Below, in pieces: positions 6,161-62,642 of a DNA stretch of 64,000 nt. Source of the DNA: Heptranchias perlo (Eukaryota). The stretch lies in the NCBI RefSeq assembly GCF_035084215.1, contig NC_090330.1, positions 42,904,001 through 42,968,000 of the forward strand. Reading direction: 5' to 3'. Below the pieces are notes generated by a model. That model did not search any database. It had not been told where the DNA came from and saw only the letters and a program-made list of their open reading frames with translations. The first letter of the stretch is position 1. Each line of letters starts with the position of its first letter. The position numbers were made by a program, and so were the translations under genes.

Positions 6161-6247
6161 TTCCCATGAATCTTCATTTTTTTAATTAGCTTGTTGGGGT
6201 GGCACTCCTGGCTAAGTATGCTGGATGAGTTTTATAACCCGTTGAAA

Positions 6248-7400
6248 TCAAGGCAGCATTTGACCGACTATGGCACCAAAGAGCCCTAGTAAAATTGAAG
6301 TCAATGGGAATCGGGGGAAAACTCTCCAGTGGCTGAAGTCATATATAGCACAAAGGAAGATGGTAGTGGTTGTTGGAGGCCAATCATCTCAGCCATAGGA
6401 CATTGCTGCAGGAGTTCCTCAGGGCAGTGTCCTAGGCCCAACCATCTTCAGTTGCTTCATCAATGACCTTCCCTCCATCATAAGTTCAGAAATGGGGACG
6501 TTTGCTGATGATTGCACAGTGTTCAGTTTCATTCTCAATCCCTCAGATAATGAAGCAGTCCGTGCCCACATGCAGCAAGACCTGGACAACATCCAGGCGT
6601 GGGCTGAAAACTGGCAAGTAACATTCGCGCCAGACAAGTGCCAGGCAATGACCATCTCCAACAAGAGAGAGTCTAACCACCTCCCCTTGACATTCAACGA
6701 CATTGCCATCGCCGAATCCCCCACCATCAACATCCTGGGGGTCACCATTGACCAGAAACTTAACTGGACCAGCCATATAAATACTGTGGCTACGAGAGCA
6801 GGTCAGAGGCTGGGTATTCTGCGGCGAGTGACTCACCTCCTGACTCCCCAAAGCCTTTCCACCATCAATAAGGCACAAGTCAGGAGTGTGATGGAATACT
6901 CTCCACTTGCCTGGATGAGTGCAGCTCCAACAACACTCAAGAAGCTCGACACCATCCAAGACAAAGCAGCCTGCTTGATTGGCACCCCATCCACCACCCT
7001 AAACATTCACTCCCTTCACCACCGGCGCACTGTGGCTGCAGTGTGTACCATCTACAAGATGCACTGCAGCAACTCGCCAAGGCTTCTTCGACAGCACCTC
7101 CCAAACCCGCGACCTCTACCACCCAGAAGGACAAGGGCAGCAGGCACATGGGAACAACACCACCTGCACGTTCCCCTCCAAGTCACAAACCATCCCGACT
7201 TGGAAATATATCACCGTTCCCTCATCGTTGCTGGGTCGAAATCCTGGAACTCCCTATCTAACAGCACTGTGGGAGAACCTTCACCACACGGACTGCAGTG
7301 GGTCAAGAAGGCGGCTCACCACCACCTTCTCAAGGGCAATTAGGGATGGGCAATAAATGCTGGCCTTGCCAGTGACGTCCATGTCCCATGAACGAATTTT
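6248..7400 (+). mobile_element. 5'-truncated APE-RT LINE (CR1/L2 group), same family as the tRNA-headed element at 49112-52373
   Basis: RT motifs [20 protein letters not shown] and FADD; ORF 6492-7343 ends SWNSL...AAHHHLLKGN*. 3' tail AATAAATGCTGGCCTTGCCAG..CCCATGAACGAAT. Confidence 0.92.
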
Positions 7401-13202: not shown

Positions 13203-14596
13203 AGATTGGACAGTAAATTGGTTGGGAGATTACAACCTCTAAGCCCAGCCATAGTTCTGTGGCAAATCCAATAGTAGCATCTAATGTTTTGTTTTTTCCC
13301 TGAGCTTGGGAAGTTCTAGGTGACTCAGTCATATTCATGACAGTTAAGTTTCTCTGGGCAGGCAAACAATGTGCATATTGAGATCAAGGAATTACTGGGG
13401 CAGGCTCCTGATGGGTAGCATTTGGAACAGTTAGAGGAATCAGGGCAACATATTCATTTTTATTGTACTTGTCTGCCCTACAACTGTTGTGGGCAGGCTG
13501 CCTCGCCTGTCTAGGTTGGTGTATCTGTTGCCATGGGCAAGGCAGAGATGGTAATTATTTGTCCTGAGCAGAAAGTATAGAGGTTTATGTTGCACCAAAG
13601 TGTGATGAATGCTGTAATCCCCACATGTTCTGAGCAGAAGCACTTTTATTCCCCTAAATTTGTTTTGAGCATTGATGTGGTGATTTTTTTTTGTAGAGGT
13701 GGAGAGGGCGGTTGCTTCTATATGGATGAAATGATACATAGATGAAACTGGCCATGCCAGCTATCCCTCTACACTTGAGGTGTAGCTACTTTTGTGGTGC
13801 TCCATTGATTCCTTGTTGAATTCCTTTCACTTTATTTTTGCCTGGCATTTCTTTCCGCTCTTCCCCATCAGCCATGGCAAAGGTTGTCCTATGTGGCTAC
13901 TTATCTCTAGGTGGCTGATTCCTTTTAAATTTCATTTAAAGCTCAATTTTCTGGTCCCGCCTTTAGGTTAGCTCCATTGAAACATAGGAAAAGAAAATTG
14001 GGCGGGGTGTAAAATGGGCGGCCGCCACCTGGCGAAGTTGAAAATTCCATCCAGAGAAGTTTGCAGCACAGAAGGATGCTATTTAACCCATAGTGTCCGT
14101 GCCCGCTCTTTTTAGAGTCTTTGCACCCACAGCTACCCAGGTAGCCGTTTGTTTAGACCACACCATATTTACTTGAGCATATATAAGGAGATGTCTCTTC
14201 ACCATTATGCTTCACCAAAGATGCAGAAAATTCCCATCTCCTGCAGGACTAGGATGTTTCCGACCATAGCAGACAATGTCAAGACTGCCTCGTGTTCTGT
14301 ACCACGGGCTCCTTACAGACTGCCTTTGGTGACATCAGTTAGATCAGCCAGTCTACAGTGCACCACTGCTTACATCAAATCAAGGATACATTGTTTTCCA
14401 GCATGGGAGATTTCGTCACTTTTCCTAATGATAATGAGCATTAACAAGAGAGAGCTCTTCACTTATTTTTAGTGTGGCTTCCCAGAATTGTACAGTATTA
14501 AAGCTGGAGCCCATGCAGCAATATGAGCTCTTTGCAGCTGTACAATTCCATTTACAAACAAAAAGGGATTCCATTACATCAATTTGTAGATTATTT

Positions 14597-14798
14597 GTGA
14601 CCAATTGGGTTTTTACAACAATCCGACCGACGGCTTCATGGTTAATTTTACTGATACCAACTTTTTATTTTCCTTTTTTTTAATTGAATTCAAATTCTCA
14701 AACTGCCATGGTGGGATTTGAACTCGCATTCTCTAGTATATTAGTACAAACCTCTGGATGACTAATTCAGTAACATAACCACGACCTCACTGTACATC
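14597..14798 (-). mobile_element. tRNA-derived head fragment homologous to the 5' end of the LINE at 52170-52373
   Basis: Aligns by eye to 52170-52370 (GGGTTTTTACAACAATCCG...GGATTTGAACTC...AGTAACATAACCAC). B box GTTCAAATCC at 14714-14723 (minus). Confidence 0.75.
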
Positions 14799-14939
14799 AG
14801 GTTAGCACATTAATCCACTGGACCATCGGATAAATGAAGGAGCACAATCATGCAATTTCGGGGCTTATGTGTTTTACCGAAGCCTAGGATTGTCATCAGA
14901 TTGTTTTTTCACTGGTCCTGCCAGGTTTTTTAAATTATT

Positions 14940-27535: not shown

Positions 27536-28079
27536 CTGTATTATTTAAATCCTGCCCGATCTCCGTATCCCTTGATTCCCTCAGAGCCCAAAAATCTATC
27601 GATCTCAGTCTTCAATATACTCAACGACTGAGCATCCACAGCCCTCTAGGGTAGAGAATTCCAAAGATTCACAACCCTCTAAGTGAATAAATTTCTCCTC
27701 ATCTCAGCCCTAAATGTCCAACCCCTTATCCTGACACTATGTCCCTTAGTTCCAGACTCTCCAACCAGGAGAAACATCCTCTCAGCATCTACCCTGTCAA
27801 GCCCTCTTAGAATCTTATATGTTTTAATGAGATCACCTCTCATTTTTCTAAATTCCAGAGAGTATGGGCCCATTCTATTCAACCTTTCCTCATAGGACAA
27901 CCCTCTCATCCCAGGAATCAATCTAGTGAACCTTCGTTCCACTGCCTCTAAGGTAAGTATATCCTTCCTTAGGTAAGAAGAACAAAACTGTACACAGTAC
28001 TCCAGATGTGGTCTCACCAAAGCCCTGTACAATTGCAGCAAGACTTCCTTATTCTTATACTCTAACCCCCTTGTAATAA

Positions 28080-28797
28080 TTGTAAACAATTTTACAACAC
28101 CAAGTTATAGTCCAACAATTTTATTTTTAATCCCACAAGCTTTCGGGGGCTTTCCCCTGCCTCAGGCGGTGTGGAAATGACATTTTCGAATCCTTCGCAT
28201 TTTAAGATCACATAACAATGCCTGGTGATTACTGCCCGTTGCCAAGGCAATCACAGTGAGCAGACAGAAAGGTGTCACCTAAAAAGGCCACCGAATATAC
28301 AAACCCCCCAAAAAAAGAGAGAGAGAGATAAGGAAGACAGTCATGACCCGTTATGTTAAAAACAGATAACATTTGTTCGCTGGTGGGGTTACGTGTAGTG
28401 TGACATGAACCCAAGATCCCGGTTCATGTCACACTACACGTAACCCCACCAGCGAACAAATGTTATCTGTTTTTAATATAACGGGTCATTGACTGTCTTC
28501 CTTATCTCTCTCTCTCTCTTTTTTTTGGGGGTTTGTATATTCGGTGGCCTTTTTAGGTGACACCTTTCTGTCTGCTCACTGTGATTGCCTTGGCAACGGG
28601 CAGTAATCACCAGGCATTGTTATGTGATCTTAAAATGCGAAGGATTCGAAAATGTCATTTCCACACCGCCTGAGGAAGGGGAAAGCCCCCGAAAGCTTGT
28701 GGGATTAAAAATAAAATTGTTGGACTATAACTTGGTGTTGTAAAATTGTTTACAATTGTCAACCCCAGTCCATCACCGGCATCTCCACATCATGGCT
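28080..28797. mobile_element. Penelope-like element remnant: two inverted pLTRs forming a ~335-bp-arm hairpin, 13-bp TSD
   Basis: Arms 28078-28411 and 28421-28757 are near-perfect reverse complements. TSD CCCCTTGTAATAA at 28067-28079 and 28798-28810. Homologous to the 3' end of the GIY-YIG element at 46961-48903. Confidence 0.9.
28666..28702 (+). ncRNA. Minimal type I hammerhead ribozyme in pLTR (inverted copy at 28133-28169 has a core mutation, CTGAGGC)
   Basis: CCGC-CTGAGGA-A-GGGG(aaagc)CCCC-GAAA-GC-TT-GTGG: CUGANGA and GAAA cores with stems I and II. Confidence 0.75.
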
Positions 28798-34386: not shown

Positions 34387-35372
34387 TGGCTAAAGTGAAC
34401 TGGGAAATTAGGTTAAGGGATATGTCAGTAGAGATGCAGTGACAGACATTTAATGAGATATTTCATAACACTCAGCAGATACATTCCAGTGAGAAAGAAA
34501 GACTCTAGGGGAAGGACGTACCATCCGTGGCTAGCTAAGGAAATTAAAGATAGTATCAAATTGAAAGAAAAAACATACAATTCCGCAAATATTAGTGGCA
34601 GGTCAGAAGATTGGACAAAATATAAAAAGCAGCAAAGAATGACTAAAAGAATAATAAGTAGGGAGAAATTAGAGTACGAGAGAAAGCTAGCTAGAAATAT
34701 AAAAACAGATAGTAAGAATTTCTACAGAAAAAGAGTAAGTAAAGTGAGTGTTGGTCCTCCAGAGAGTTAGTCGTGGGAATTAATAATGGAGAATAAGGAA
34801 ATGGCGGATGAATTGAACAGATATTTGGGGCTTCATTTTAGCACCCGCTATCGGGTGCGTTCCTGGCCGGCGGGGGGGCTCCGAAAATCGGGGAATCCCG
34901 GAGCGGGTCCGGAGCCCGGCTCCAACCCGCCCACTTCCAGGTTCCCCACAGATGCGCCGGCGTGCGCGCGCAGCCCCCGCAGGTGGGAATCCCGCAGGTA
35001 ATTAAAGCCAGCGGGATGCCACTTGACAATATTTATCTAGGTATTTCAGGTCATTAACAGACCTGATTAAGGGATTATGTGAGGAGGGGTGGGATTTTAC
35101 AAACAACTGGGACTGTTTCCCATACTGGGGGAAACACTCCCAGTTGAAATAGACGTGTTGCAGCTGTCAGCCTGTGGCAGCTGCAAAGGTCCATTTGACA
35201 GATGGGGGGGGGGAGACCCTCACTCATTGCAGGAGGCCACTCTGTCACTTGGGACAAAGTTTGGCCTCCACCACCCTCCTCCTGACAAGAAAATTCACCA
35301 ACTTGCACACTTACCCCGGGGTCCAGAGACATGTACCTACCTTGTGGACCCCCTCAGATGTACATCTTCCGG

Positions 35373-35805
35373 ATGGGGGCCGCCGTAGCTGCAGTCATGA
35401 CCTCCTCGGAGGGCGAACAGCATCACCAGCCTCACCAGCCTTGCCGGCCACGCCGTCCACCTCTAACACGTGGAGCTCCACGACAGAGTGCTGTGACACA
35501 TCCACCTGCACAGCAGGAGGGAGGGCAACCACGGAGAGAGATGCATCGCAGAAGGCACTACCCTCGCCACAGGGTCCACAGACCGAGGCTCAGCTTCCTG
35601 GACCTCTCTGAGCAGCAGTGCACACGGAGGCTCAGAGTCACTCGACATGTAGTCGTGGACATCTGCAGCCTCCTTCATGCCGAGCTGCTCCCGGTTGGCC
35701 CGAGCACCATCTTCTTACCTGTCGCTGTCAAAGTCACCACTGCCCTCAACAACTTCTCCCCCGCATCCTTCCAGGGTGCCACCGGGGACATCGCCGACGT
35801 CTCCA
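35373..35805 (+). pseudogene. Harbi1-like nuclease N-terminal half (catalytic DDE part deleted)
   Basis: RPRLSFLDLSEQQCTRRLRVTR..DICSLL..LPVAVKVTTALNNF..SFQGATGDIADVS. Confidence 0.8.
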
Positions 35806-36375
35806 CAAAAGAGCCCTGCAAATACACCTACACCACTCTGCAGTGACACAATGGGTGTCATCAGTTGTGGGTCTTCATTGTGATCCTCAGGAAAGGGCAT
35901 TATTGCACAAACCAGACAAGATTCGCAAAGACGTGACAGTAGTGGTGCCAATATAATATGTAATGTGAGTTGGTCAGAAATTCAATATAAGTAACAACCA
36001 TGACAAACCCTCAAACACCCTTGTGCATCCCCTTCATGCTCACGACACGTTTGCCTTACGCTGCCTACTGCACATATGTGATGCATGCCCTGTAGCTGCA
36101 GCACAGGTAGTGGCAGGTTGAGTGAGGCTGACCGTTAAAGAGATGCACGAGAGGGTGAGTATGAGATAGAGCCATGAGATTGTATGAGGATTGGGTTGAG
36201 TGGTAGTGACGGGATGAGTACTGGCGAGGTGAGTAAGTGCAGGTAAGATGAGGATGAGGTTTGAGTGGGTATGAGGGGTGATGTGACAGAGTAGTGTTGG
36301 CAGTGCAGAAGGTGATGTGAGGTGGGGGCGGTGATGTGGCAGATGGAGTGTAGGGGAATGAGTAAGTGTACTCAC

Positions 36376-36620
36376 TTTGGCTGACCTACTTAGGTCATTG
36401 GAGCGCCTCCTGCACTGTATGCAGGTGGACGATATGTTGGTGGTGCAGATGACCTCTTCTGCCACCTCGAGCCAGGCCTTCCTGGTGGCAGAGGCAGGCC
36501 GCTTCCTCCCGCCCATCGGGGGGAAGATCTCTGTCCTCCCCCTCCTCCTCACCCCATCTAATGATACCTGGAGTGAGGCATCATTAAACTGGGAGCAGCC
36601 TTCCCCCTGGGCTGCTCCAT
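36376..36620 (-). pseudogene. Myb/SANT-like (MSANTD-type) DNA-binding gene exon 1 of Harbinger, frameshifted
   Basis: MEQPRGKAAP/FNDASLQVSLDGV...KAWLEVAEEV...IQCRRRSNDLSRSAK, then a GTGAGT donor. TATTTAAA box at ~36671-36678 (minus). Confidence 0.8.
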
Positions 36621-37818
36621 GCTGTAATTTTTTGAATTTGTTGCAGCATCTGTCAGTGGAGGACTCCCCCTTTAAATAGAGCTCCTCCAGCTGACAGGCC
36701 TTACTGCGCATGCGCAGTCCGCCCGACGCACAGATCAGCAGTGGGGAACCCGGAAGACCAGGTAAGTGGATCCAATTAAGCTGCGAACGCACGGGGGGCA
36801 GACTAATTTCACTGGGCGCGTTACCCACGCGCCCAATAGCACCCCTGCCGCGAACCTGCAGCCCCGGTAACATCGGGCTCTTTGGGTCCGTCTTCACGGT
36901 AGAGGATACAAATAACATGCCAGAAATAATTGTGAATCAAGAGGTGAAAGGGAGGGAGGAACTTAAAACATTTACAAACACCAGGGAAAGGGTTCTGAAA
37001 AAAATATTAGAACTAAAAGCTGATAAGTCCCCAGGTCCTGACGGACTTCATCCTAGGGTCTTAAAAGAAGTGGCTGCAGAGATAGTAGATGCATTGGTAT
37101 TAATTTTCCAAGATTCCCTAGATTCTGGAAGGGTCCCACCAGATTGGAAAATAACAAATGTAACTCCTCTATTCAAGAAAGGAGTGAGACAGAAAGCAGG
37201 AAACTACAGGCCAGTTAGCTAAACATCTGTCATAGGGAAAATGCTACAATCTATTATTAAGGGGGTTATTGCAGGGCACTTAGAAAATCTCAATGCAATC
37301 AGGCAGAGTCAACACAGCTTTGTGAAAGGGAAATTATGTTTGACTAATTTATTAGAGTTCTTTGAGGAAGTAACAAGCAACGTGGATAAAGGGGATCCTG
37401 TGGATGTGGTATACTTGGATTTCCAGAAGGCTTTTGACAAGGTGCCACATCAAAGGCTACTACACAAAATAAAAGCTCATGGTGTAGGGGATAACATATT
37501 AGCATGGATAAAGGATTGGTTAGGTAACAGGAAACAGAGAGTAGGCATAAATGGGTCATTTTCAGGTTGGCAAGATGTAACGAGTGGAGTGCCACAGGGA
37601 ATGTGCTGGGGCCTCAACTATTTACAATCTATATCAATGACTTGGATGAAGGGACTGAATGTATGGTTGCTAATTTTGCTGATGACACAAAGGTAGGTAG
37701 GAAAGTAAGTTGTGAAGAGGACATAAGGAGTCTGCAAAGGGATATAGATAGGTTAAATGAGCGGATAAAAAATTGGCAGATGGAGTATAATGTGGGAAAA
37801 TGTGAACTTGTCCACTTT

Positions 37819-46633: not shown

Positions 46634-47677
46634 ATAGCTGAGGCCCAAGCACTTATTCTTGTGGCGCCCCACTAGTTACAGCCTGCCAACCTGAAAATGA
46701 CCCGTTTGTCCCTACTGTTCTCTGTCTGTTAACCAATCTTCAATCCATGCTAATATATTATCCCCAATCCCTTGAGTCCTTATCTTGTGTCACAACCTTT
46801 GTGAGTCACCTTATCGAATATCTTTTGAAAATCCAAACATATTACATTCACTGGTGCCCTTTTATCTACCCTGCTAGTTACATCTTCAAAAACTCGAATA
46901 GATTTGTCAAACACAATCTCCCTCTCATAAAACCATGTTGACTCTGCCAAGTCATATTATTGTAAACAATTTTACAACACCAAGTTATAGTCCAGCAATT
47001 TTATTTTAAATTCACAAGCTTTCGGAGGCTTCCTCCTTCGTCAGGTGAACGATGTGAAAATGAAATCCTCGAAATGAAATCGCATTTATAATTCACAGAA
47101 CAATGCTTGGTGAGTACAGACAGTTTTTTCAACTGCCCGTTGCCAAGGCAATCAGTGTGCAGACAGACAGGTGTTACCTGCCAGGTCTCACAGAATATAC
47201 AAATCACCAAAAAAAAAACAACAAACAAAAAAAAAACAGAGATAGAGAGGTAGAAACATAGAAAAGACAGCAACTGACCCGTTATATTAAAAACAGATAA
47301 CATTTGTTCGCTGGTGGGGTAACGTGTAGCGTGACATGAACCCAAGATCCCGGTTGAGGCCGTCCTCGTGGGTGCGGAACTTGGCTATCAATTTCTGCTC
47401 GACGATTTTGCGTTGTCGTGTGTCTCGAAGGCCGCCTTGGAGTACGCTTACCCGAAGGTCGGTGGATGAATGTCCATGACTGCTGAAGTGTTCCCCGACT
47501 GGGAGGGAACCCTCCTGTTTGGCGATTGTTGCGCGGTGTCCGTTCATCCGTTGTCGCAGCGTCTGCATGGTCTCGCCAATGTACCATGCTCTGGGGCATC
47601 CTTTCCTGCAACGTATGAGGTAGACAACGTTAGCCGAGTCACAGGAGTATGAACCATGCACCTGGTGGGTGGTGTCC

Positions 47678-48540
47678 CCTATGGGCAGGCCCTGCGAATA
47701 CACAGGGTCTGCTCAGACGAGGAGGAACGCGATGGACACCTACAGACGCTGAAAGACGCCCTAGTAAGAACGGGATATGACGCTCGACTCATCGATCGAC
47801 AGTTCCGACGGGCCACAGCAAAAAATCGCATAGACCTCCTCAGGAGACTAACACGGGACGCAACCAACAGAGTACCCTTTGTCGTCCAGTACTTCCCCGG
47901 AGCGGAGAAACTACGCCATGTTCTCCGCAGCCTTCAACATGTCATCAATGAGGACAAACACCTCGCTATGGCCATCCCCACACCTCCACTACTCGCCTTT
48001 AAACAGCCACCCAACCTCAAACAGACCATCGTTCGCAGCAAATTACCTAGCTTTCAAGAGAACAGCGTCCACGACACCACACAACCCTGCCACGGTAACC
48101 TCTGCAAGACATGCCAGATCATCGACACAGATACCACCATCACACGAGAGGACACCACCCACCAGGTACATGGTTCATACTCCTGTGACTCAGCTAACGT
48201 TGTCTACCTCATACGTTGCAGGAAAGGATGCCCCAGAGCATGGTACATTGGCGAGACCATGCAGACGCTGCGACAACGGATGAACGGACACCGCGCAACA
48301 ATCGCCAAACAGGAGGGTTCCCTCCCAGTCGGGGAACACTTCAGCAGTCATGGACATTCATCCACCGACCTTCGGGTAAGCGTACTCCAAGGCGGCCTTC
48401 GAGACACACGACAACGCAAAATCGTCGAGCAGAAATTGATAGCCAAGTTCCGCACCCACGAGGATGGCCTCAACCGGGATCTTGGGTTCATGTCACGCTA
48501 CACGTTACCCCACCAGCGAACAAATGTTATCTGTTTTTAA
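47678..48540 (+). CDS. Penelope polyprotein C-terminal fragment: RT C-terminal/linker region plus GIY-YIG endonuclease (5'-truncated, uninterrupted)
   Basis: PYGQALRIHRVCSD, then PCHGNLCKTC, NVVYLIRC...WYIGET..LRQRMNGHR, E..LI..F and GLN. The ATG at 47656 comes from the inverted arm. Confidence 0.88.
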
Positions 48541-48778
48541 TATAACGGGTCAGTTGCTGTCTTTTCTATGTTTCTACCTCTCTATCTCTGTTTTTTTTTT
48601 TGTTTGTTGTTTTTTTTTTGGTGATTTGTATATTCTGTGAGACCTGGCAGGTAACACCTGTCTGTCTGCACACTGATTGCCTTGGCAACGGGCAGTTGAA
48701 AAAACTGTCTGTACTCACCAAGCATTGTTCTGTGAATTATAAATGCGATTTCATTTCGAGGATTTCATTTTCGCATCG

Positions 48779-48817
48779 TTCACCTGACGAAGGAGGAAGC
48801 CTCCGAAAGCTTGTGAA
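48779..48817 (+). ncRNA. Minimal type I hammerhead ribozyme in pLTR (identical inverted copy at 47011-47049, minus)
   Basis: TTCAC-CTGACGA-A-GGAGG(aag)CCTCC-GAAA-GC-TT-GTGAA, with AATAAA just downstream. Confidence 0.85.
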
Positions 48818-49111
48818 TTTAAAATAAAATTGCTGGACTATAACTTGGTGTTGTAAAATTGTTTACAATTGTCAACCCCAGTCCATCACCGGCATCTCCA
48901 CATCAAGTCATATTATGATTTTCTAAGTGCCCATTACCATGTCCTCAATAATGGATTCCAGTATTTTCCTGAATGCTGATGTCAGGCTAACTGGCCTGTA
49001 ATTCCCTCTCCCTCCTTTCTTGAATGGAGGTATTACATTTGCTACCTTCCAATCTACAGAGACAGTTCTAAAATCTAGGGAATTTTGGAATCCACTATCT
49101 CTGCAGCCACC

Positions 49112-52100
49112 TTTTTTTTTATTCGTTCATGGGATGTGGGCGTCGCTGGCAAGGCCGGCATTTATTGCCCATCCCTAATTGCCCTTGAGAAGGTGGTGGT
49201 GAGCCGCCACCTTGAACCGCTGCAGTCCGTGTGGTGACGGTTCTCCCACAGTGCTGTTAGGAAGGGAGTTCCAGGATTTTGACCCAGCGACGATGAAGGA
49301 ACGGCGATAAATTTCCAAGTCGGGATGGTGTGTGGCTTGGAGGGGAACGTGCAGGTGGTGTTGTTCCCATGTGCCTGCTGCTCATGTCCTTCTAGGTGGT
49401 AGAGGTTGCGGGTTTGGGAGGTGCTGTCGAAGAAGCACCTCCCAAACTGCGAGTTGCTGCAGTGCATCCTGTGGATGGTACACACTGCAGCCACAGTGCG
49501 CCGGTTGTGAAGGGAATGAATGTTTAGGGTGGTGGATGGGGTGCCAATCAAGCGGGCTGCTTTATCTCGGATGGTGTCGAGCTTTTTGAGTGTTGTTGGA
49601 GCTGCACTCATCCAAGCAAGTGGAGTGTATTCCATTACACTCCTGACTTGTGCCTTGTAGATGGTGGAAAGGCTTTGGGGAGTCAGGAGGTGAGTCACTC
49701 GCTGCAGAATACCCAGCCTCTGACCTGCTCTCATAGCCACAGTATTTATATGGCTGCTCCAGTTAAGTTTCTGGTCAATGGTGACCCCCAGGATGTTGAT
49801 GGTGGGGGATTCGGCAATGGTAATGCTGTTGAATGTCAAGGGGAGGTGGTTAGACTCTCTCTTGTTGGAGATGGTCATTGCCTGGCAATTATCTGGCGCA
49901 AATGTTACTTGCCACTTACGAGCCCAAGCCTGGATGTTGTCCAGGTTTTGCTGCATGTGGGCTCGGACTGCTTCATTATCTGAGGGGTTGCGAATGGAAC
50001 TGAACACTGTGCAATCATCAGCGAACATCCCCATTTCTGACCTTATGATGGAGGGAAGGTCATTGATGAAGCAGCTGAAGATGGTTAGGCCTAGGATACT
50101 GCCTCGAGGAGCTTCTGCAGCAATGTCCTGGGGCTGAGATGATTGGCCTCCAACAACCACTACCATCTTCCTTTGTGCTAGGTATGACTCCAGCCACTGG
50201 AGAGTTTTCCCCCAATTCCCATTGACTTCAATTTTACTAGGGCTCCTTGGCGCCACATTCGGTCAAATGCTGCCTTGATGTCAAGGGCAGTCACTCTCGC
50301 CTCACCCTGGAATTCAGCTCTTTTGTCCATGTTTGGACCAAGGCTGTAATGAGGTCTGGAGCCGAGTGGTCCTGGCGGAACCCAAACTGAGCATCGGTGA
50401 GCAGGTTATTGGTGAGTAAGTGCCGCTTGATAGCACTGTCGACGACACCTTCCATCACTTTGATGATGATTGAGAGTAGTCTGATGGGGCGGTAATTGGC
50501 CGGATTGGATTTGTCCAGCTTTTTGTGGACAGGACATACCTGGGCAATTTTCCACATTGTCGGGTAGATGCCAGTGTTGTAGCTGTACTGGAACAGCTTG
50601 GCTAGAGGCGCAGCTAGTTCTGGAGCGCAAGTCTTCAGCACTACAGCTGGGATGTTGTCGGGGCCCATAGCCTTTGCTGTATCCAGTGCACTCAGCCGTT
50701 TCTTGATATCACGTGGAGTGAATCGAATTGGCTGAAGACTGGCTTCTGTGATGGTGGGGATATCGGGAGGAGGCCGAGATGGATCATCCACTCGGCACTT
50801 CTGGCTGAAGATGGTTGCAAACGCTTCAGCCTTGTCTTTTTCACTCACGTGCTGGACTCCACCATCATTGAGGATGGGGATGTTTGCAGAGCCTCCTCCT
50901 CCCATTAGTTGTTTAATTGTCCACCACCATTCACGACTGGACTGCAGAGCTTTGATCTGATCCGTTGGTTGTGGAATCGCTTAGCTCTGTCTATACCATG
51001 TTGCTTCCGTTGTTTAGCATGCATGTAGTCCTGAGTTGTAGCTTCACCAGGTTGGCACCTCATTTTTAGATACGCCTGGTGCTGCTCCTGGCATGCTCTT
51101 CTACACTCCTCATTGAACCAGGGTTGATCCCCTGGCTTATTGGTAATGGTAGAGTGAGGAATATGCCGGGCCATGAGGTTACAGATTGTGCTGGAATACA
51201 ATTCTGTTGCTGCTGATGGCCCACAATGTCTCTTGGATGTCCAGTTTTGAGCTGCTGGATCTGTTCTGATTCTCCCCCATTTAGCACGGTGGCTGTGCCA
51301 CACAACACATTGGATGGTGTCCTCAGTGCGAAGACGGGACTTCATCTCCACGAGGACTGTGCAGTGGTCACTCCTACCAATACTGTCATGGACAGATGCA
51401 TTTGCGACAGGTAGATTGGTGAGGACGAGGTCAAGTAAGTTTTTCCCTCGTGTTGGTTCGGCTCACCACCTGCCGCAGGCCCAGTCTCGTAGCTATGTCC
51501 TTTAGGACTCGGCCAGTTCGGTCAGTAGTGGTGCTACCGAGCCACTCTTGGTGATGGACATTGAAGTCCCCCACCCAGAATACGTTTTATGCCCTTGCTA
51601 CCCTCAGTGCTTCCTCCAAGTGGTGTTCAACATGGAGGACGACGGATTCATCAGCTGAGGGAGGACGGTAATCAGCAGGAGGTTTCCTTACCCATGTTTG
51701 ACCTGATGCCATGAGATTTCATGGGGTCCAGAATCAATGTTGAGGACTCCCAGGGCCACTCCCTCCTGACTGTATATCACTGTACCGCCACCTCTGGTGG
51801 GTCTGTCCTGCTGGTGGGACAGGACATACCCAGGGATGGTGATGGAAGAGTCTGGGACGTTGGCTATGTCAGGCTGTTGCTTGACTAGTCTGTGGGACAG
51901 CTCTCCCAATTTTTGCACAAGTCCCCAGATGTTAGTAAGGAGGACCTTGCAGGGTCGACTGGGCTTGGTTTGCCGTTGTCGTGTCCGGTGCCTAGTGGTC
52001 CGTCCGGTTTTATTCTTATTATGACTTTTCGTAGCGAGATTTTACAACTGAGTGGCTTGCTAGGCCATTTCAGAGGGCAATGAAGAATTAACCATATTGC

Positions 52101-52373
52101 TGTGGGTCTGGAGTCACATATAGGCCAGACCGGGTAAGGACAGCAGGTTTCCTTCCCTAAAGGGCATTAGTGAACCAGATGGGTTTTTACAACAATCCGG
52201 TAGTTTCATGGCCATCATTACTGATACTGGTATTTTAATTCCAGATTTTTATTTAATTAATGAATTTAAATTCACCAGCTGCCGTGGTAGGATTTGAACT
52301 CATGACTCTGGATTTTAGTCTGGGCCTCTAGGATTACTAGTTTAGTAACATAACCACTATGCTACCATACCCC
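49112..52373 (-). mobile_element. Near full-length single-ORF APE-RT LINE (CR1/L2 group) with a tRNA-derived 5' head and no ORF1
   Basis: Order on minus: tRNA-like head, ~250-nt leader, APE (LLTNIWGL, DRPTRGGG), RT (KAMGPDNIP, NYRPI, QFGFR, FADD), 3' tail and poly(A). A few frameshifts. Confidence 0.9.
52290..52364 (-). promoter_or_regulatory. Type 2 Pol III internal promoter (A box and B box) at the LINE 5' end
   Basis: A box TAGCATAGTGG (52354-52364) fits TRGCNNARYGG. B box GTTCAAATCC (52290-52299) fits GTTCRANNC. Confidence 0.75.
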
Positions 52374-54162
52374 ATAGGGTGTAGGTCATCAGGTCCAGGG
52401 GATTTGTCAGCTTTTAGTCCCATTAATTTCTCCAGTACTTTTTCTTTACTAAGATTAATTACTTTAAATTCCTCACTCTCATTAGACCCTTGGTTCCCCA
52501 CTATTTCTGGTATGTGTTATATGTCTTCTACTGTGAAGACAGATACAAAATATTTGTTTAACGCCTCTGGCATTTCCTTATTCCCCATTGTAATTTCTCC
52601 TGTCTCAGCCTCTAAGGGACCTATGTTTACTTTCGCTACTCCCTTCCTTTTTACATACTTGTAGAATCTCTTACAATCTGTTTTTATATTTCTTGCTAGT
52701 TTACTCTCATATTCAATTTTCTCCCTCTTTATCATTTTTTTGGTCATCCTTTGCAGGTTTTTAAAACTCTCCCAGTTCTCAGGCTTACTACTCTTCTTGG
52801 AAATATTCTAAGCCTCTTCTTTTAATCTAATACTATCCTTAACTTCTTTAATGAGCCACGGATGGATCACTTTTCCCATGGAGTTTTTATTCCTCAATGA
52901 AATGTATATTCATATGTTCGCCATTGCTTATCTACCATCATATCTTTTAATCTAATTTCTCAATCAACCTAACTAGTTAGCCATGGTTGGATCACTTTTC
53001 CTGTGGGGTTTTTCTTCCTCAATGGTATGTATATTCGTTGGAAATTATGAATAATTTCTTTAAATGTTCGCCATTACTTATCTAGCGTCATCTCTTTTAA
53101 TCTAATTTCCCAATCTACCTTAGCCAACTCACCTCTCGTACCTACATACTTGGCCTTGTTTAAATTTAAGACCCTAGTTTCAGACTTAACTACATCACTC
53201 TCAAACTCAATATGAAATTCTATCATATTAAGATCACTCTACCCCAGAGGATCCCTTACTATGAGATTACTAATTAACCCTGTCTCATTACACAAGACTA
53301 GATCTAAAATAGCTTGCTCCCTGGTTGGTTCCACGACATATTGTTCCAGGAAACTGTCTCGAATACATTCGTTCTCCAATTTACTTTTCCCAATTTGATT
53401 TGCCCAGTCTATATGAAGATTAAAGTCCCCCACGATTATTGCATTACCTTTTTTACAAGCATCTTTTATTTCTTGATTAATACTCTGTCCAACAACTGTT
53501 AGGAGGCCTATAAACAATCCCACAAGTGTTTTCTGTCCCTTATTATTTCTTATCTCCACCCATACTGATTCTACTTCCTGATCTTCCAAGCCAACATCCT
53601 TTCTCACTACTGTCTTTATGTCATCCTTTTTTATCAGGGCTACCACCACCCCCCGCCCCACCTTTTCCATTTTGTCCACGTCTCAGTAAAGGCTATTAGA
53701 TCAAACCCATTTATCTCTATTTGTGGCATTAATTCATCTATGCTTTGTGCATTCAGATAAAGTGCCTTTAATTTTTACTATATTTTCCTGATTCGACCCT
53801 ATTCACTGATGAACTATTACTGTTAAATTCTCTGTCCCTTCCTGACACATTCTGCTTATCTTTACCCTAATTGCTACACTGCTCTATGGCCTTGACTTTT
53901 CTCTTTAGATTTATAAATTTACCCTTAACTGAACCCTCCCTCCCTCATCTTTCCCTGACACACAATACATTTAGGGCAGCTCATTTATCTAATCGAGCAT
54001 ACTGGTACATTTTGCTAAGATGTCTGCTTCCACTGTTTTTTATATTTTTGAAACTGTTAAATTCAAGATTGCTGTAATATAAGTTTAGTGATTGACAATC
54101 AATTAGATTATTTTGATAAAAATCAATAAAGTACTCGTGAAGCACGTCAGTTGTCAGCTGGT

Positions 54163-55210: not shown

Positions 55211-56438
55211 CACGGCACTGTCAAGTTTGTAGGCCAAAGTATCGCCATGGCAGCCAGGATTATACATTGTAAGTGTGTGGTGGGGTTCTGGCAATAAATG
55301 TATTATCATTAGGAATCTAAATTCATTTCCTAAGTGTCCCAGGAAATGTAAAGCCAGAAGTGACTGCCGTTTCATTGGTAGAGAAATTTATTTTTGAACA
55401 AGTTAAAGTTATTCAAAAAGGAAGGAAAGTCTAGAGGGGTTCCTTTTTGTCTAAAGCACTCCTCTATTTCATAGAAGATAAAGTGTCAAATTTCTTCTTG
55501 GTGTGGAGATCCTAGAATTGGGTTTCCCTCTCTGCTGGCTTGTTCAGGAGCCTTGGGACCCCAGAAATCACACAAGAACCTGGGAAATTGTCCTATAACA
55601 CAGTTTCTTGTTTGATGGATAACTGTGATACAGTTTCATCCAATAACTGAAATTACTGGAACACTCAGCATTACAATAAATGATTCCTGAGACAGCGGCC
55701 TTGTTAGTGGGTTGTTCTTTACGGCAAAAACCAGTGTATTATTTTTTTGTTAAAAGGAGAATTTGATCCCTCCTCCAAATTGTTAAATCTGTTAAAGGGG
55801 TGCCCAATTACCCCTTTAACCTTTTGAGTACTGAGTTTTCTTTATGGGGTTTAAAACGACAGTAGGCTGGTTATTCCTCTTGGTGGACAGTGCATCCACT
55901 TATTGCTCGGTACATTTTGCTACTGTTGTTGACAAATTTATTCAATGACTGCTTAGCACTGTTATTCCTGTGTTTAACCCAGAACCATTGTCAGTGCCAG
56001 TGCCAAACAGAGGGCAAAAAAATTGACTAAATAGGTAAATTAAGGCCTTCCCTCAAATGTCATTTGAACTCTAACTTTGAAATCTAACCCTACTGAGATA
56101 AGCATTTTTAGTGATTATTAGCCATTTAATGAACAGGCAATGTGGACAATGCGGACACTGGAAAAACTAGGTTTTTGGGATTTGGGTCAATCATCCACCC
56201 AATTCTGCCAATCACCAATAACCAATTAGCGCCAATGCTGGCTGTAAAATATTATTATATATAATTAGACAAGTATACATCCCCAAAACTTACTCATTTC
56301 ACATGTCATAGCTATTTATTTGCATTATTCTTTGAATAAACTTGTGATGTTCGAACTTCCTTGGCACAAAAATGCTGTGCTCTGGGACTTATGTCCATTA
56401 AAGAGTTACAGCTAAATAATGTTTAGATAGTGAGTGCT

Positions 56439-59345
56439 GGGCTATGATTTTAGCATGGCAATGGGATGTCAGCTGGTGGGTGGATTTGCGCATGGGGAAC
56501 CGGGAGGCAAAGTGAACATGTTTAAATCTGCAATCGTATCTCAATTGCAGTCTATTACCTTTGCTTCTGGGTTTCGCGTCTCCAAGCTGCGCAGCGGGCC
56601 TACTGCGAACCCGAATGATGCAATTTCAAGCCCACTGTTTAAAGGGCCAGTCCAAGAATGGATTTTGAAGGAGAAAGGAGAAATGGAGTTCAAGAAAGCA
56701 AAGACTGCCCCTAGATTGAATGATGCCTCCCTGGATGTACTGCTGGCTGCAGTGAGAGCCAGGAGGGAGGTAGTGTTTCCAATGGATGGTAGGACGAAAC
56801 TTGGCTCTCCAACCAAAGATACTTGGCTGGAGTTAGCAGAAGAGGTGAGCAGCAGGAGCACGGTGCCCAGGTCTTGGGTTCAGTACAGAAAGAGTTTTAA
56901 TGACGTAACCAGGTCAGGAAAGTGAGTACAGTTGTTGATTCATCCACACCCTGTGTAGTTCAACACCCCATCCCCCATCACTCTGTGTTGGCATGCCTAC
57001 CCCATCACATGACTCCTCACATCCACTTAAGGGTCGGCAGCAACAACCATCCTTCACTTTCTATGCACTTCCTCAACTGCCCATTTACTCATCCACCACT
57101 GCCACTTGCTCCAATCCTGATGCAATAAGATGTATCTGTCTTATAGTGACCCTCTGATACATCTCATTCATGGTCAGCTTCACTTAAAGCAATGCATTCA
57201 TAGGGTGAATACGTCATCTTCAGTCACTCACAAGTCTGTTCGTTCTTCCTTTGTAGGAGAAGAGAGTGCAAAACGCAAGCAAGAGGAGCAGAACTGGAGG
57301 TGGCCCACCACATAGTGGTAATGACAGATGTGAAAGAGGAGGCCATGGAAATAAGTCGGACCGTCGCATGTCTGTCCATCGGAGGCAGAAAGACAGGCAA
57401 CCCGCGGATGGCTGGTGACAGAACTTTAACATCTTTCATGCACATGATGAATTGATTTTATCAATGATGTAACTGTGCCAGACCTCAAAAAGGGCATTGG
57501 AAAGATTGTCACTTCTGCAATGAATCATTAATATTGCTTTCTTTTGTCTTCCAGGGCCTTCACGAGGAATCAGCAGACATGGAAGGAAGTAATTCCTCGG
57601 AGGAGCTCATTCCTTCTGAGGGTGCACCATCATGGGACATACAGCCATGCACCAGCGCTGATACTTGCACTTCGGTGGATCCTGTTAGCCAGATAATTCG
57701 GTTGTCACGTGGTGATTCTTCACTCAGAGGTGACGACGAGCATTCACTGGTGGCAGGGGCAGCTGTGGAGAATTGAGAAGAAGAATGATAGAGGTACAGC
57801 AGCAACTTTGCAAAGTAATGGAATAAGTGCCACGGACACTCTCCACAATAGCGGAGAGGATGGAGGAGTCCAACTCCATCGCTAATGGATTGGTGGCGAG
57901 AATTTCTGCAATGGAGAGAATGGTAGCCTCTATTGAGCTTCAAGCATGGCTCTCAAATGAGTCCATGCAGGCCATGACAACGGCCGTATGGACTTTGGAT
58001 GCCAACATGTCTGCCGCCTTAAACAAGCAGACGGATACTTTAGCCATGGCCAGCAGAGTGGTGGGAGTGATGTTGCGCTAGCCCCAGAGAGGGATGATGG
58101 CGAAAGTGTACATGGAAGTGGGGACTCCACTCAAAGTGCTCCCATGTTTCACCCGTTACCCCCTCCTCAACCAGTACCCGTAATGCTGCCTCCTCTCCCG
58201 ATGGATGAGTCTGCCCCTGCACAGATGCAGGTGGAGCAGTCTGTGGTGGGGCCTCACGGGCTCCAAAACCCAGAGGTCGTAGGCTGAGAACATCTCAGCA
58301 GCCACGGCAGGGATCTGAGCAACCTTCCACTACCTCTGCTGAAGCCACAGGGGATGCACCACATAGAAGCGGTAGAAAGAGAAAGGCTAAGCATTTGTAA
58401 TTCACCAACGGTATGCACAAAGGTGTTTGAAGAGCTGTCTTGTTAATTTATATATTTTTTTTGTTATGGTGCATTAAATTTAATCATTATCATCACCACT
58501 GCCATTATTGAGTCCCTTTTGTAAATTCACCCTTTCATATGCTTCATTATAAATGCCAAGACATGATGCCACCTATTGGGCGCGTGTGCAATGGGTGTAT
58601 GCGTGGTTAAAGGACTGTTTTGTGCAAAGTGGGGGGTGGTTTGGTGGTTGTTCCGGGCAGCCTGAATGTTTCAAAATCTTCAATTTGCACATCTCATTAT
58701 GAGAACCTGTTAGAGATGAGGGAATCCCTGACATCATGGGCTGCAATGTGTGCGTCTGCTCTGGCGATGGGTTTCCCATCTTTATTTTCCTCCTCCTCTG
58801 ATATACTGTGGAATAGATCCATTGCATCCCCCATCCTGATCTTGTCAGTTTGAGGGGCTCCAAAATGTAGATAAATTTGTCTGAACACAAGAATTCTCAG
58901 TCTCAACAAAGAAATCTCAGTCTAAACACAAAGAACTCCCAGACAAACGTTTGTTGGAGAGAATTGAGTGCCCAGTTGCAATACCTCACCTTTTATTGAG
59001 ATGGTTTAAAGGGCCAAATGAGCTTTGGCTACAACTCGTTCCATTTCAATGGCAAATTTCAGAAGCCATGGGAGACTCGTTCAGGAGTAGTTAAATCTGT
59101 TTCTGTTGCAGAATCCACAAAAAGTTAACTACCTAAAGTGTTTCAACTACCTGAATTGGCCGTTTAAATATCAGCTTGCTGGCTTTAAATGGGGACAGGA
59201 CTTCTGGGTTTCTGTTGCGCGCGCGCGCATCCTAATGTATCTGGGTTAAACCCGGAAGTGAGCTTGTTGGAGCCGGGATGTGGTCCCGCTCCAAAAAGCT
59301 GCTATTTTAACTTCCCACCCGCCCTTGGGGGTTAAAATTACCCCC
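56439..59345 (+). mobile_element. PIF/Harbinger element with a three-exon Myb/SANT gene (+) and a Harbi C-terminal remnant (-, ~58697-58850)
   Basis: Ends GGGCTATGATTTTAGC / GTTAAAATTACCCC. The minus strand ends AAHDVRDSLISNRFS*, typical of a Harbi C-terminus. Confidence 0.8.
56683..58400 (+). pseudogene. Harbinger Myb/SANT-like gene; exons ~56683-56921, 57257-57413 and 57555-58400
   Basis: MEFKKAKTAPRLNDASLDVLLAAV..WLELAEEV..RSWVQYRKSFND, then gtgagt; ttgtag then EKRVQNASKRSRTGGGPP; ccag then ...GRKRKAKHL*. Frameshifts and stops present. Confidence 0.75.
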
Positions 59346-60288: not shown

Positions 60289-62642
60289 TGTGACAAAAGT
60301 GCAGCAGATAACTGGTTTTGATGCAAGAAACTTTGATCTTTATTCAAGAGAGAAAATACAACACTACAATCTTAACACTCTAATAAAATGGGGAACACTT
60401 CGGTACACACGAGGGAAATTACAGTAGAAAGATACCTCACCCCTCCCAATCCCACTTTACTAGCTAAGTTGGGCTCTAAAGGACCAAAGATAATGCTCAC
60501 CAAACGAATCCTTGACAGTTGAGCTGGTTCGCGATTTTGGGGTTCGCAGTATGTGTTGGTTGGTGTCTGCCATACCTCAGACACGGTAGAGGACTTCAAC
60601 TGCGTAGCTGGTCAGTCTTCACGAGTCCGCTGATACGGTAGGGTGTGTCTTGGATCTATCGGGTGAGTACCCACTTTTCTTTGTAAAGTGATAGGATTTA
60701 GAGTCTTTTGAGTAGAAAACTCACCCAGGGGTAAGTCAGGAATAGATTGTAGAGTGGAAACTTTGCAGATCTTCGGTTTTCTCCCGAGTTGGTTTTCTTT
60801 GGTCGTGGTGGCTCAATATTACCTGGTTGGTTGGTGGTAATATTCGGTTGGTTGTTTCGTAAGGCCCTTGTTGCCGCGAGGTGTCTGATGGTCACTGGGG
60901 CTGTTGTTCTGGTTTCTTCTTGTGTGTCGGCCTGCTTCTAGAGCTGCTGACCTCTGTTGAACTTCTTTCTGTTGCCCCCTTGCCTTGTTGAACTGTTGTC
61001 TCCCAAGCTGTCGAACTCCTGGCTGAACTGAACTTCTTGAGAAAATGGGCCTTCAATTATATTAATTGAAGCCTCCTTATCTGCACGCCAAATCTGACCT
61101 GGTTTATTGTAAGATTTTGGCTGGCTCATTAAGAGTAACTTGTTTATGAAAATGTGTGAAGTGGTTTCGTGATGGTTTCATGAGTTGTTGAGCTCTTGCT
61201 TGATTGTAGTCATTGTGCTCAGGTTTCGAGTTTCCTGACTGGGCCTGAGATTTCTATGGAGTGGGCTGATTGGATTTGTTTTATGCGTGTTTTGGATGGG
61301 TCCTGTAATTTGGGTGGGGACTGCTCTTCCGTGCGTCTATTGTCTGAATGTAAATGTCTGGTCGGGGCTGAGTGAGGTCATACAGTTCCCCAGACAGTTT
61401 GATTAACTCCAACACTCAAACTGTCTATTACAGAGTTGATCCCAACTTCTGTTGCAGCCTTTGTTTTCCTTTACAAGCCGAAACATGCCTTTTTAAAATA
61501 CCAAATCTTGGTTTTTGACCTTGAATCACCCTCTGATAGGCCCAATATTTCATCACCCTGAAATTTTTTTTTTTATTATTCGTTCATGGGATGTGGGCGT
61601 CGCTGGCGAGGCCGGCATTTATTGCCCATCCCTAATTGCCCTTCAGAAGGTGCTGGTGAGCCGCCTTCTTGAACTGCTGCAGTCCGTGTGGTGACGGTTC
61701 TCCCACAGTGCTGTTAGGAAGGGAGTTCCAGGATTTTGACCCAGCGACGATGAAGGAACGGCGATATATTTCCAAGTCGGGATGGTGTGTGACTTGGAGG
61801 GGAACGTGCAGGTGGTGTTGTTCCCATGTGCTTGCTGCTCTTGTCCTTCTAGGTGGTAGAGGTCGCGGGTTTGGGAGGTGCTGTCGAAGAAGCACCTCCC
61901 AAACTGCGAGTTGCTGCAGTGCATCCTGTGGATGGTACACACTGCAGCCACAGTGCGCCGGTGGTGAAGGGAGTGAATGTTTAGGGTGCTGGATGGGGTG
62001 CCAATCAAGCGGGCTGCTTTATCTTGGATGGTGCCGAGCTTCTTGAGTGTTGTTGGAGCTGCACTCATCCAAGCAAGTGGAGAGTATTCCATCACATTCC
62101 TGACTTGTGCCTTGTAGATGGTGGAAAGGCTTTGGGGGGTCAGGAGGTGAGTCACTCGCCACAGAATTCCCAGCCTCTGACCTGCTCTTGTAGCCACAGT
62201 ATTTATATGGCTGGTCCAGTTAAGTTTCTGGTCAATGGTAACCCCCAGGATGTTGATGGTGGGGGATTCGGTGATGGTAATGCCGTTGAATGTCAAGGGG
62301 AGGTGGTTAGACTCTCTCTTGTTGGAGATGGTCATTGCCTGGCACTTATCTGGAGCGAATGTTACTTGCCACTTATGAGCCCAAGCCTGGATGTTGTCCA
62401 GGTCTTGCTGCATGCGGGCTCGGACTGCTTCATTATTTGAGGGGTTGTGAATGGAACTGAACACTGTGCAATCATCAGCGAACATCCCCATTTCTGACCT
62501 TATGATGGAGGGAAGGTCATTGATGAAGCAGCTGAAGATGGTTGGGCCTAGGACACTGCCTGGTTAGAAAAGAGTCCAAAGTCCTTTTCTTTAGGGTTTT
62601 TCTCCGAGTTTTGGGGGATCTGTGAATTTTGAGAATCTTACA
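60289..62642 (-). mobile_element. Possible solo LTR (TG...CA) interrupted by a LINE
   Basis: Begins TGTGAC and ends TTACA; AATAAA on minus ~50 nt from the 3' end; non-coding with a distinct GT-skewed composition. No TSD found. Confidence 0.4.
61564..62560 (-). mobile_element. 5'-truncated copy of the tRNA-headed LINE family
   Basis: ORF 61643-62491 (FADDCTVF) is nearly identical to 49162-50030; same tail and poly(A). Confidence 0.92.

What the first reader, a model, noticed from the sequence alone, without database searches (positions are those of the whole stretch)
49125..52373. No TTTT (Pol III terminator) on the ~3.2-kb sense strand of the tRNA-headed LINE
Seen: reading by eye I find no AAAA on the + strand from ~49125 to 52373, so no sense-strand T run longer than 3. 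The same holds for the copies at 6248-7395 and ~61580-62560. Neighbouring CR1 coding regions (e.g. 20669-22363) contain many sense-strand T4-T8 runs. Established: vertebrate Pol III terminates at T4 or longer. Inference: the coding sequence is under selection to remain readable by Pol III, which supports the promoter finding independently.
Basis: partly seen in the sequence, partly recalled or inferred. Interest (0 to 1): 0.85.

Follow-up and report, generated by a model that had tools for sequence, protein, structure and literature searches.

The report
Pol III-type LINE without start codon
This is a worn copy of an abundant 3.3-kb protein-coding jumping gene that starts with a tRNA-type promoter, lacks the T-runs that stop RNA polymerase III and has no AUG start codon, so it is likely made by the polymerase of small non-coding RNAs and likely translated from a folded RNA leader.

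Summary
Confirmed: the sense strand of the element at 49112-52372 (-) has no TTTT; it is the longest such gap in the window. The family (about 5.5% of 864 kb sampled) has 24 T4 runs in 435 kb of copies, against 4.0-4.6 per kb in CR1. On its own the zero is only marginal (2.0-2.5 expected from dinucleotide or codon shuffles, P 0.04-0.11), and the copies are one lineage. Further tests support selection: T3 runs and non-canonical Pol III terminators are depleted, recurrent C>T changes avoid making T-runs (1 of 97 sites against 15 of 124 on the mirror strand), and none of 103 related ORFs is T4-free. Full-length copies begin at +1 of a tRNA-derived head with A and B boxes. New here: the intact 973-codon EN-RT frame has no AUG before the endonuclease, is coded from directly behind a structured leader (one compensatory pair), and follows an anticodon-like hairpin, resembling a dicistrovirus type 6 IRES; the pseudoknot is untested by covariation. 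SINE-like internal deletions share head, leader and tail. Best reading: an autonomous LINE transcribed by Pol III and translated without cap or AUG. No expression data.

The parts
49112..52372 (-). full-length, decayed copy of the tRNA-headed single-ORF LINE (93% to an intact copy), inserted into a CR1 fragment; no T4 on the sense strand
52278..52372 (-). tRNA-derived head; D arm and anticodon arm (AGT, Thr-like) can be drawn in better-kept copies; full-length copies all start here
   Evidence: not called by ARAGORN or Rfam
52354..52364 (-). Pol III box A match at +8 of the element
   Evidence: consensus from general knowledge
52290..52299 (-). Pol III box B match; core has no variant at 6% or more among the copies and is the same in the old SINEs
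52045..52225 (-). conserved structured leader shared with the genome's SINEs (Deu-like by recall only); candidate internal ribosome entry element; holds upstream ATGs that are closed or out of frame
52107..52179 (-). long leader helix (arms 52179-52170 and 52117-52107); its outer pair is U-A in the LINE and A-U in the old SINEs
52048..52073 (-). 3' hairpin of the leader with a 7-nt anticodon-like loop (AGC), pairing probability about 0.9
52033..52035 (-). in-frame GCT complementary to the loop; predicted codon mimic, first decoded codon would follow it
   Evidence: no compensatory change found
49175..52041 (-). single EN-RT open frame (973 codons in intact copies, no AUG before the endonuclease); broken by several indels in this copy
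49112..49174 (-). short 3' UTR shared with the SINEs, and A9 tail
6239..7397 (+). 5'-truncated copy, 0 sense T4
61569..62560 (-). 5'-truncated copy, 0 sense T4
14593..14800 (-). old, partial copy of the head (73%), member of the related SINE family

Best explanation
An abundant single-ORF LINE carries a tRNA-derived head with A and B boxes, has almost no sense-strand T-runs and no AUG start, and is likely transcribed end to end by RNA polymerase III and likely translated from its folded leader without cap or AUG. Shown: the head is a fixed part of the coding element; the frame is under purifying selection; T-runs are avoided in recurrent variants; coding starts right behind the leader; SINE-like internal deletions exist. 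Inferred: TFIIIC/TFIIIB load Pol III on the head; the transcript runs 3.3 kb because any source copy that gains a T-run is cut short and leaves no offspring; it ends at the first T-run in the flank (14-634 nt past the tail in 19 of 20 copies, at the tail in one); the uncapped RNA recruits ribosomes through the leader, most likely by a type-6-IRES-like codon-anticodon mimic (loop AGC with the in-frame GCT; about 0.4 for this exact mode); ORF2p then binds the 3' UTR and inserts by target-primed reverse transcription.
For: Head: of 30 copies picked by protein only, 15 reach position 1-10 of the head, 15 are cut short, none shows another shared 5' end; upstream flanks are unrelated. T-runs: 24 T4 in 435,453 bp of 220 non-redundant copies; in 864 kb chosen blind 3 in 47.5 kb against CR1 521 in 124 kb (545 expected), other LINEs 116 in 28 kb (106), Penelope 9 in 6.3 kb (8.8) despite lower T. 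Recurrent C>T changes making T>=3: 1 of 97 sites against 56 of 759 (P 0.007) and against 15 of 124 mirror G>A sites (P 0.0009). Terminator-like motifs as defined in PMC3141230: 2 against 5.9-6.6 (P 0.01-0.03), antisense not depleted; lowest density and lowest observed/expected (0.31; next 0.75) among 104 ORFs, the only one without T4. Autonomy: recurrent variants N/S 0.22, many 973-codon frames. No AUG: first Met about 200-300 codons in, behind endonuclease motifs; nine upstream ATGs closed or out of frame; N-terminal extension is coding in the ORF frame: 56 of 74 length changes are multiples of 3, 5 of 8 recurrent changes silent against 1 and 0 in the other frames. Relatives checked start with AUG and show no A/B box pair (L156, L436, L437). 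Leader: one compensatory pair between LINE and old SINE, 89.7% of cells paired.
Against: T4=0 alone is marginal (P 0.04-0.11). L437, with an AUG, has T 0.20 and 1 T4 against 3.9 expected; by z-score 2 (T3) and 4 (terminators) of 103 controls are as low as this family; 1 of 17 control ORFs was also depleted under the codon shuffle. Rare T4-creating changes are only mildly short (11 against 16.7, P 0.10, or 20.4, P 0.017) and the recurrent-variant test loses significance at the 5% threshold (P 0.13). All copies are one lineage; no second, independent head-bearing family could be tested. None of 30 copies with an altered loop showed a clean compensating codon; RNAalifold did not predict the 3' hairpin; the leader as a single sequence folds no better than shuffles (z -0.88); Rfam finds no IRES or tRNA. 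The compensatory pair is one evolutionary event.
Confidence: 0.65

Rival explanations
1. The head and leader were captured from a SINE by template switching and are passengers; the element is made by Pol II (internal or host read-through promoter), and the missing TTTT is low T content plus a founder accident.
For: Composition-matched shuffles lack T4 in 4-11% of cases; L437 and L174 show that T-poor LINEs can be nearly T4-free; template switching between SINE and LINE RNAs is the accepted source of such chimeras (PMC4824008, PMC5499810, passages).
Against: Does not explain the strand-specific avoidance among recurrent variants, the terminator depletion, the exact start at tRNA +1, the kept boxes or the loss of the AUG, which a capped RNA with nine upstream ATGs could hardly afford.
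Confidence: 0.17
2. U-runs are selected against for another reason (nucleases that cut at UU/UA, U-rich immune sensing, premature polyadenylation or splicing signals, RT slippage), whichever polymerase makes the RNA.
For: TT (0.78) and TA (0.64) are both under-represented; T3 runs, which alone hardly stop Pol III (PMC3141230), are depleted too.
Against: CR1 of the same genome has TT at 1.2 and T4 at expectation; T3 next to another T is a Pol III terminator in PMC3141230, and nearly all remaining T3 are isolated; 159 of 160 other LINE loci keep T4.
Confidence: 0.1
3. Pol III makes the RNA, but translation starts by another route: a near-cognate codon, stop read-through from the in-frame ATG in the 3' hairpin, or frameshifting from the overlapping 76-codon upstream frame, not a codon-anticodon mimic.
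For: An in-frame ATG in good context lies nine codons before the frame; an older subfamily has a sense codon in place of the second stop; ACG follows the GCT; no compensation in the predicted pseudoknot.
Against: The ATG is closed by TAG at codon 3 and by TAA in nearly all young copies; ACG is replaced by ACA or AAA in whole subfamilies; the overlapping frame is not conserved (1 of 8 changes silent); hairpin-to-GCT spacing is kept in 128 of 133 copies.
Confidence: 0.3

Closest known systems
CR1-Zenon-like single-ORF LINEs (lepidopteran Zenon, bivalve CR1-Zenon; amphioxus relative P0022)
   Same: About 3.3 kb, one APE-RT frame, A tail, internal-deletion derivatives (PMC6740152, passages); groups with an amphioxus and a moth protein, apart from the genome's CR1 (quick tree; names).
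   Different: Zenon derivatives lack a Pol III promoter (PMC6740152); relatives with DNA in hand start with AUG, have no A/B box pair and carry T4. The label Zenon is by resemblance; no reference Zenon sequence was in the tree.
SacSINE1 / LmeSINE1 DeuSINEs and their partner (L2-2_CM or CR1-4_DR-like)
   Same: tRNA head, central domain and LINE-type tail, about 450 bp (PMC5499810, PMC3747384); this genome's old SINEs share head, leader and tail with the LINE at 72-83%.
   Different: Described as non-coding, with homology to the LINE only at the tail; here head and central domain sit on the coding LINE itself. Identity with SacSINE1/Deu is recalled, not tested.
Type 6 (dicistrovirus intergenic) IRESs
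   Same: Non-AUG start directly behind a 3' anticodon-like hairpin with a complementary triplet, a longer helical domain upstream, about 150 nt (features from PMC10516663, PMC13273307, passages).
   Different: No Rfam match, L1.1 motifs not identified, no covariation in the pseudoknot; known only from RNA viruses (no mention of retrotransposons or SINEs in PMC13273307).
R2 retrotransposons (recalled)
   Same: LINE not made by Pol II, uncapped RNA, non-AUG initiation from a structured 5' region.
   Different: R2 is co-transcribed by Pol I in rDNA, is freed by a ribozyme and has a restriction-like endonuclease; this element has its own promoter and an APE domain.

Membership tests
Autonomous LINE (APE-RT non-LTR retrotransposon) | Intact APE endonuclease and RT in one frame | tested here: met
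   PF14529, PF03372, PF00078 above cut-off in a 973-codon frame; many intact copies
Autonomous LINE (APE-RT non-LTR retrotransposon) | Fixed 3' end with tail, frequent 5' truncation, purifying selection on the frame | tested here: met
   recurrent N/S 0.22
Autonomous LINE (APE-RT non-LTR retrotransposon) | Target-site duplications | tested here: not met
   20 of 23 full-length copies show none of 5 bp or more; not required in the CR1/L2 group (general knowledge)
CR1-Zenon clade | RT phylogeny with reference Zenon elements | tested here: inconclusive
   Quick tree places it with a Branchiostoma and a Loxostege protein, away from the genome's CR1; no named Zenon in the set, support 81-90
CR1-Zenon clade | Single ORF, about 3.3 kb | tested here: met
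   sizes in PMC6740152 table 1
Pol III type 2 (tRNA-type) transcription unit | Boxes A and B at tRNA positions, start at +1 | tested here: met
Pol III type 2 (tRNA-type) transcription unit | No internal T>=4 and few non-canonical terminators | tested here: met
   (modest significance for one lineage)
Pol III type 2 (tRNA-type) transcription unit | Transcription by Pol III, uncapped 5' end, U-run 3' end | not testable with these tools
   No run on record as RNA, contigs only
SINE (SINE2 / DeuSINE) | Short and non-coding | tested here: not met
   Full element is 3.3 kb and coding; only its derivatives are short
SINE (SINE2 / DeuSINE) | Central domain homologous to the published Deu domain | not testable with these tools
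   No readable reference sequence; the label is recalled
Type 6 IRES | Non-AUG frame starting right behind a 3' hairpin | tested here: met
Type 6 IRES | PKI codon-anticodon pseudoknot supported by covariation | tested here: inconclusive
   AGC and GCT kept across young LINE and old SINE while the linker changes, but no compensation (7 of 32 rows there were picked for a changed loop)
Type 6 IRES | PKII with L1.1 motifs; match to the family model | tested here: not met
   No Rfam IRES hit up to E 10; helix with internal loops supported by one compensatory pair, motifs not identified
Type 6 IRES | Factor-independent ribosome binding | not testable with these tools
   needs toeprinting

The most novel reading that the evidence does not exclude
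A self-sufficient, Pol III-transcribed, protein-coding retrotransposon (an autonomous SINE) whose leader is a cellular type-6-like IRES, and whose internal deletions give rise to the shark DeuSINEs, so that the long-unexplained Deu domain is a ribosome-binding element inherited from such LINEs.
Probability: 0.3. Interest if true: 0.95.

Novelty: new variant of a known kind. Interest (0 to 1): 0.82.

Why it matters
LINEs are held to be Pol II units and Pol III products to be short and non-coding. A 3.3-kb coding element that fills about 5% of a vertebrate genome through Pol III and AUG-free translation would break both rules and give a natural cap-independent cassette. It also makes an old question testable: the function and origin of the conserved SINE central domains are stated as unknown (PMC4824008, PMC5786205); here such a domain sits exactly where a ribosome entry site must be.

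Tried and rejected
ARAGORN and Rfam did not call the head or an IRES. Expression: no RNA holder listed, only contigs; they cover all 30 bins in four runs of four coded organisms but say nothing on start, end or strand. Compensation in the predicted pseudoknot: a variant linker seen in run contigs was not in G000; 30 loop-variant copies were private changes. T-run plus A-run tails (15 of 97 copies against 0 of 97 control windows) looked like terminator plus added poly(A), but T4A4 is enriched genome-wide (216 against 41): rejected as evidence. The 'syn3' null also depleted the antisense control, so it was set aside. The variable loop base is explained by general CTA hypermutability, not by structure. 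A second, independent head-bearing family was sought: one search hit an unrelated insertion, one gave no loci. Viral contigs: nothing. Mutation bias does not explain the lack of T-runs: T before T mutates least and X>T rates match their mirrors. Literature: ten searches found no description of a tRNA-headed coding LINE or of an IRES in a SINE domain; Repbase, Dfam, Nishihara 2006 and the supplement of PMC5499810 could not be seen and may hold the family. PMC3141258 was a wrong id.

Full report
Observation. The + strand has no AAAA from 49074 to 52546, the longest such gap in the window (3,473 nt; next 1,238). It coincides with a minus-strand element at 49112-52372 that is inserted into a CR1 fragment.

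The family. The genome (3.25 Gb) gives 27,922 first-look candidates; fragments of the protein occur in shark gene models. In eight 100-kb blocks chosen blind plus the window, copies of 88% identity or more fill 47.5 of 864 kb. Intact copies hold one 973-codon frame with APE endonuclease and RT. Recurrent variants have N/S 0.22, rare ones 0.80, so source copies are selected for their own protein. A quick RT tree (the careful search did not finish) sets it apart from the genome's CR1, among single-ORF elements that include an amphioxus and a moth protein; this resembles CR1-Zenon (PMC6740152, PMC11481361, passages read), a label by resemblance. No target-site duplication in 20 of 23 full-length copies; tails are mostly A8-11.

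The head belongs to the coding element. Of 30 copies picked by protein similarity alone, 15 reach position 1-10 of the head, 15 are truncated inside it or further in, and none shows another shared 5' end; flanks are unrelated. Box A lies at +8 and box B at about +72; the B core has no variant at 6% or more and is unchanged in the older SINEs. ARAGORN and Rfam do not call it. Of 30 loci picked by the head, 5 are internal deletions that join head and leader to the tail; of 30 loci picked by an old head, 20 are head-leader-tail SINEs, two more are split by an insertion, and one runs on into the ORF. In run contigs many such joints share one breakpoint just behind the leader. These SINEs fit the description of SacSINE1 (PMC5499810, part 2 of 6 and passages; PMC3747384, passages); that the leader is the Deu domain is my recall, since no reference sequence could be read.

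How strong is the missing TTTT? For one lineage, modest: 0 against 4.2-4.5 (base shuffle, P about 0.01), 2.0-2.4 (dinucleotide, P 0.08-0.11), 2.2-2.5 (codon, P 0.04-0.07). Copy totals (24 in 435 kb) are not independent. Supporting tests: (a) T3 runs 6-8 against 13-15 (P 0.001-0.011), A4 not depleted. (b) The weaker terminators described in PMC3141230 (passages: T3VT, TVT3, T2VT2; isolated T3 and T2GT2 nearly inactive) number 2 in the ORF against 5.9-6.6 (P 0.01-0.03), the antisense strand is not depleted, and 1 of 17 control ORFs showed a similar P. (c) Same-genome controls sit at expectation: CR1 521 against 545, other LINEs 116 against 106, Penelope 9 against 8.8 at T 0.17; no control segment of 1 kb or more was T4-free. 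(d) Related LINE loci from other organisms: 79 of 80 and 80 of 80 carry T4 (962 against 941 expected in the second set), and no A/B box pair was found upstream. Among 104 ORFs of 600 codons or more this one alone has no T4 and has the lowest terminator O/E (0.31, next 0.75), though 2-4 of 103 controls match its z-scores, and L437 (AUG start, T 0.20) has only 1 T4. (e) Among 220 non-redundant copies, C>T changes carried by 3% or more fall on 1 of 97 sites where they would make T>=3, against 56 of 759 other sites (P 0.007) and 15 of 124 mirror G>A sites (P 0.0009); at 5% the first contrast is not significant (P 0.13). Rare T4-creating changes: 11 against 16.7 or 20.4 (P 0.10, 0.017). Mutation bias does not account for it. 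Together: sense-strand T-runs are selected against in source copies; Pol III termination is the simplest cause given the head.

The frame has no AUG. It opens behind a TAA at the end of the leader; the first Met lies about 200-300 codons in, past endonuclease motifs (one copy has a private ATG at codon 4). Nine upstream ATGs are closed by stops or out of frame. The basic N-terminal extension is coding in the ORF frame: 56 of 74 length changes are multiples of three (a 15-nt repeat may help), and 5 of 8 recurrent changes are silent in that frame against 1 and 0 in the others. Relatives with DNA in hand begin with Met. An uncapped Pol III RNA needs exactly such a cap- and AUG-independent start (general knowledge).

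The leader. It folds into a long helix with internal loops and a 3' hairpin with a 7-nt loop carrying AGC; 12 nt further on an in-frame GCT can pair with it. AGC and GCT are kept in young LINEs and old SINEs while the linker changes, and the spacing is kept in 128 of 133 copies. The outer pair of the long helix is U-A in the LINE and A-U in the old SINEs (one event). This is the layout of type 6 IRESs: a codon-anticodon mimic right before a non-AUG first codon, 120-260 nt long (PMC10516663, PMC13273307, passages). Against: no Rfam match, z -0.88 for the single sequence, RNAalifold omits the 3' hairpin, no compensation in 30 loop variants. It may work like such an IRES; it is not shown to be one.

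Mechanism (inferred steps marked in Best explanation): Pol III starts at +1, reads 3.3 kb, stops at the first flank T-run; ribosomes enter at the leader; the protein copies its own RNA; source copies that gain a T-run die out; internal deletions keep promoter, leader and tail and spread as SINEs. Whether the LINE captured the SINE front or the SINE came from the LINE is open; PMC5786205 (part 1 of 5) found only RTE and Vingi 5' parts in SINE bodies and calls the origin of the conserved bodies unknown.

Novelty. Ten paper searches found no tRNA-headed coding LINE; Repbase and Dfam were not available and may list the family. Two earlier AI notes describe like elements in other genomes; they agree but are no evidence. 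PMC10572872 and PMC7245038 (passages, supplements of the latter) added nothing decisive. Verdict: real, family-wide, probably selected; a new variant of LINE with a likely new mode of expression; no direct transcription or translation data.

Noticed in passing
family copies, e.g. element position 329 = window 52062; 57 young copies: Sense-strand T in C-T-A changes to G, C or A in 3.69 independent steps per site, against 0.28 for other T and 1.83 for CpG; the excess does not grow with copy age and the mirror strand is less affected, suggesting a one-off error at insertion (RT or repair).
   Followed up: partly
element 303-318 with 3260-3275 (window about 52088-52073 with 49186-49171, minus): A 16-bp helix can form between the leader and the stretch over the stop codon; 1 of 200 shuffles reaches that length; three old-SINE differences each break a pair. 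Possible 5'-3' closure of the RNA.
   Followed up: partly
element positions 243 and 251: A/T and G/C occur together in 82 and 38 of 129 copies, a subfamily-level double change in the leader's apical loop.
   Followed up: partly
L100, L105, L107, L110, L124; L237-L265: SINE-like derivatives with several different junctions, all just behind the leader.
   Followed up: partly
window 46959-48869: Penelope-like GIY-YIG frame at 47653-48540 (+) inside a 723-bp inverted repeat at 99%; young and common in the blind blocks.
   Followed up: no
window 28078-28757: A 680-bp near-perfect palindrome (97% to its own reverse complement) inside CR1-related sequence.
   Followed up: no
window 35153-36936 and 56434-56925: GC-rich frames that look like Harbinger transposase and Myb/SANT partner fragments (names recalled).
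   Followed up: no
L402:1740-2405 (G000 C15): An unrelated 670-bp repeat, 75-81% alike in at least 40 places, inserted into an old copy of the family.
   Followed up: no
L436-L515: Eukaryotic LINEs sit in many prokaryote genome bins of the genome-contig collection, i.e. host contamination.
   Followed up: no
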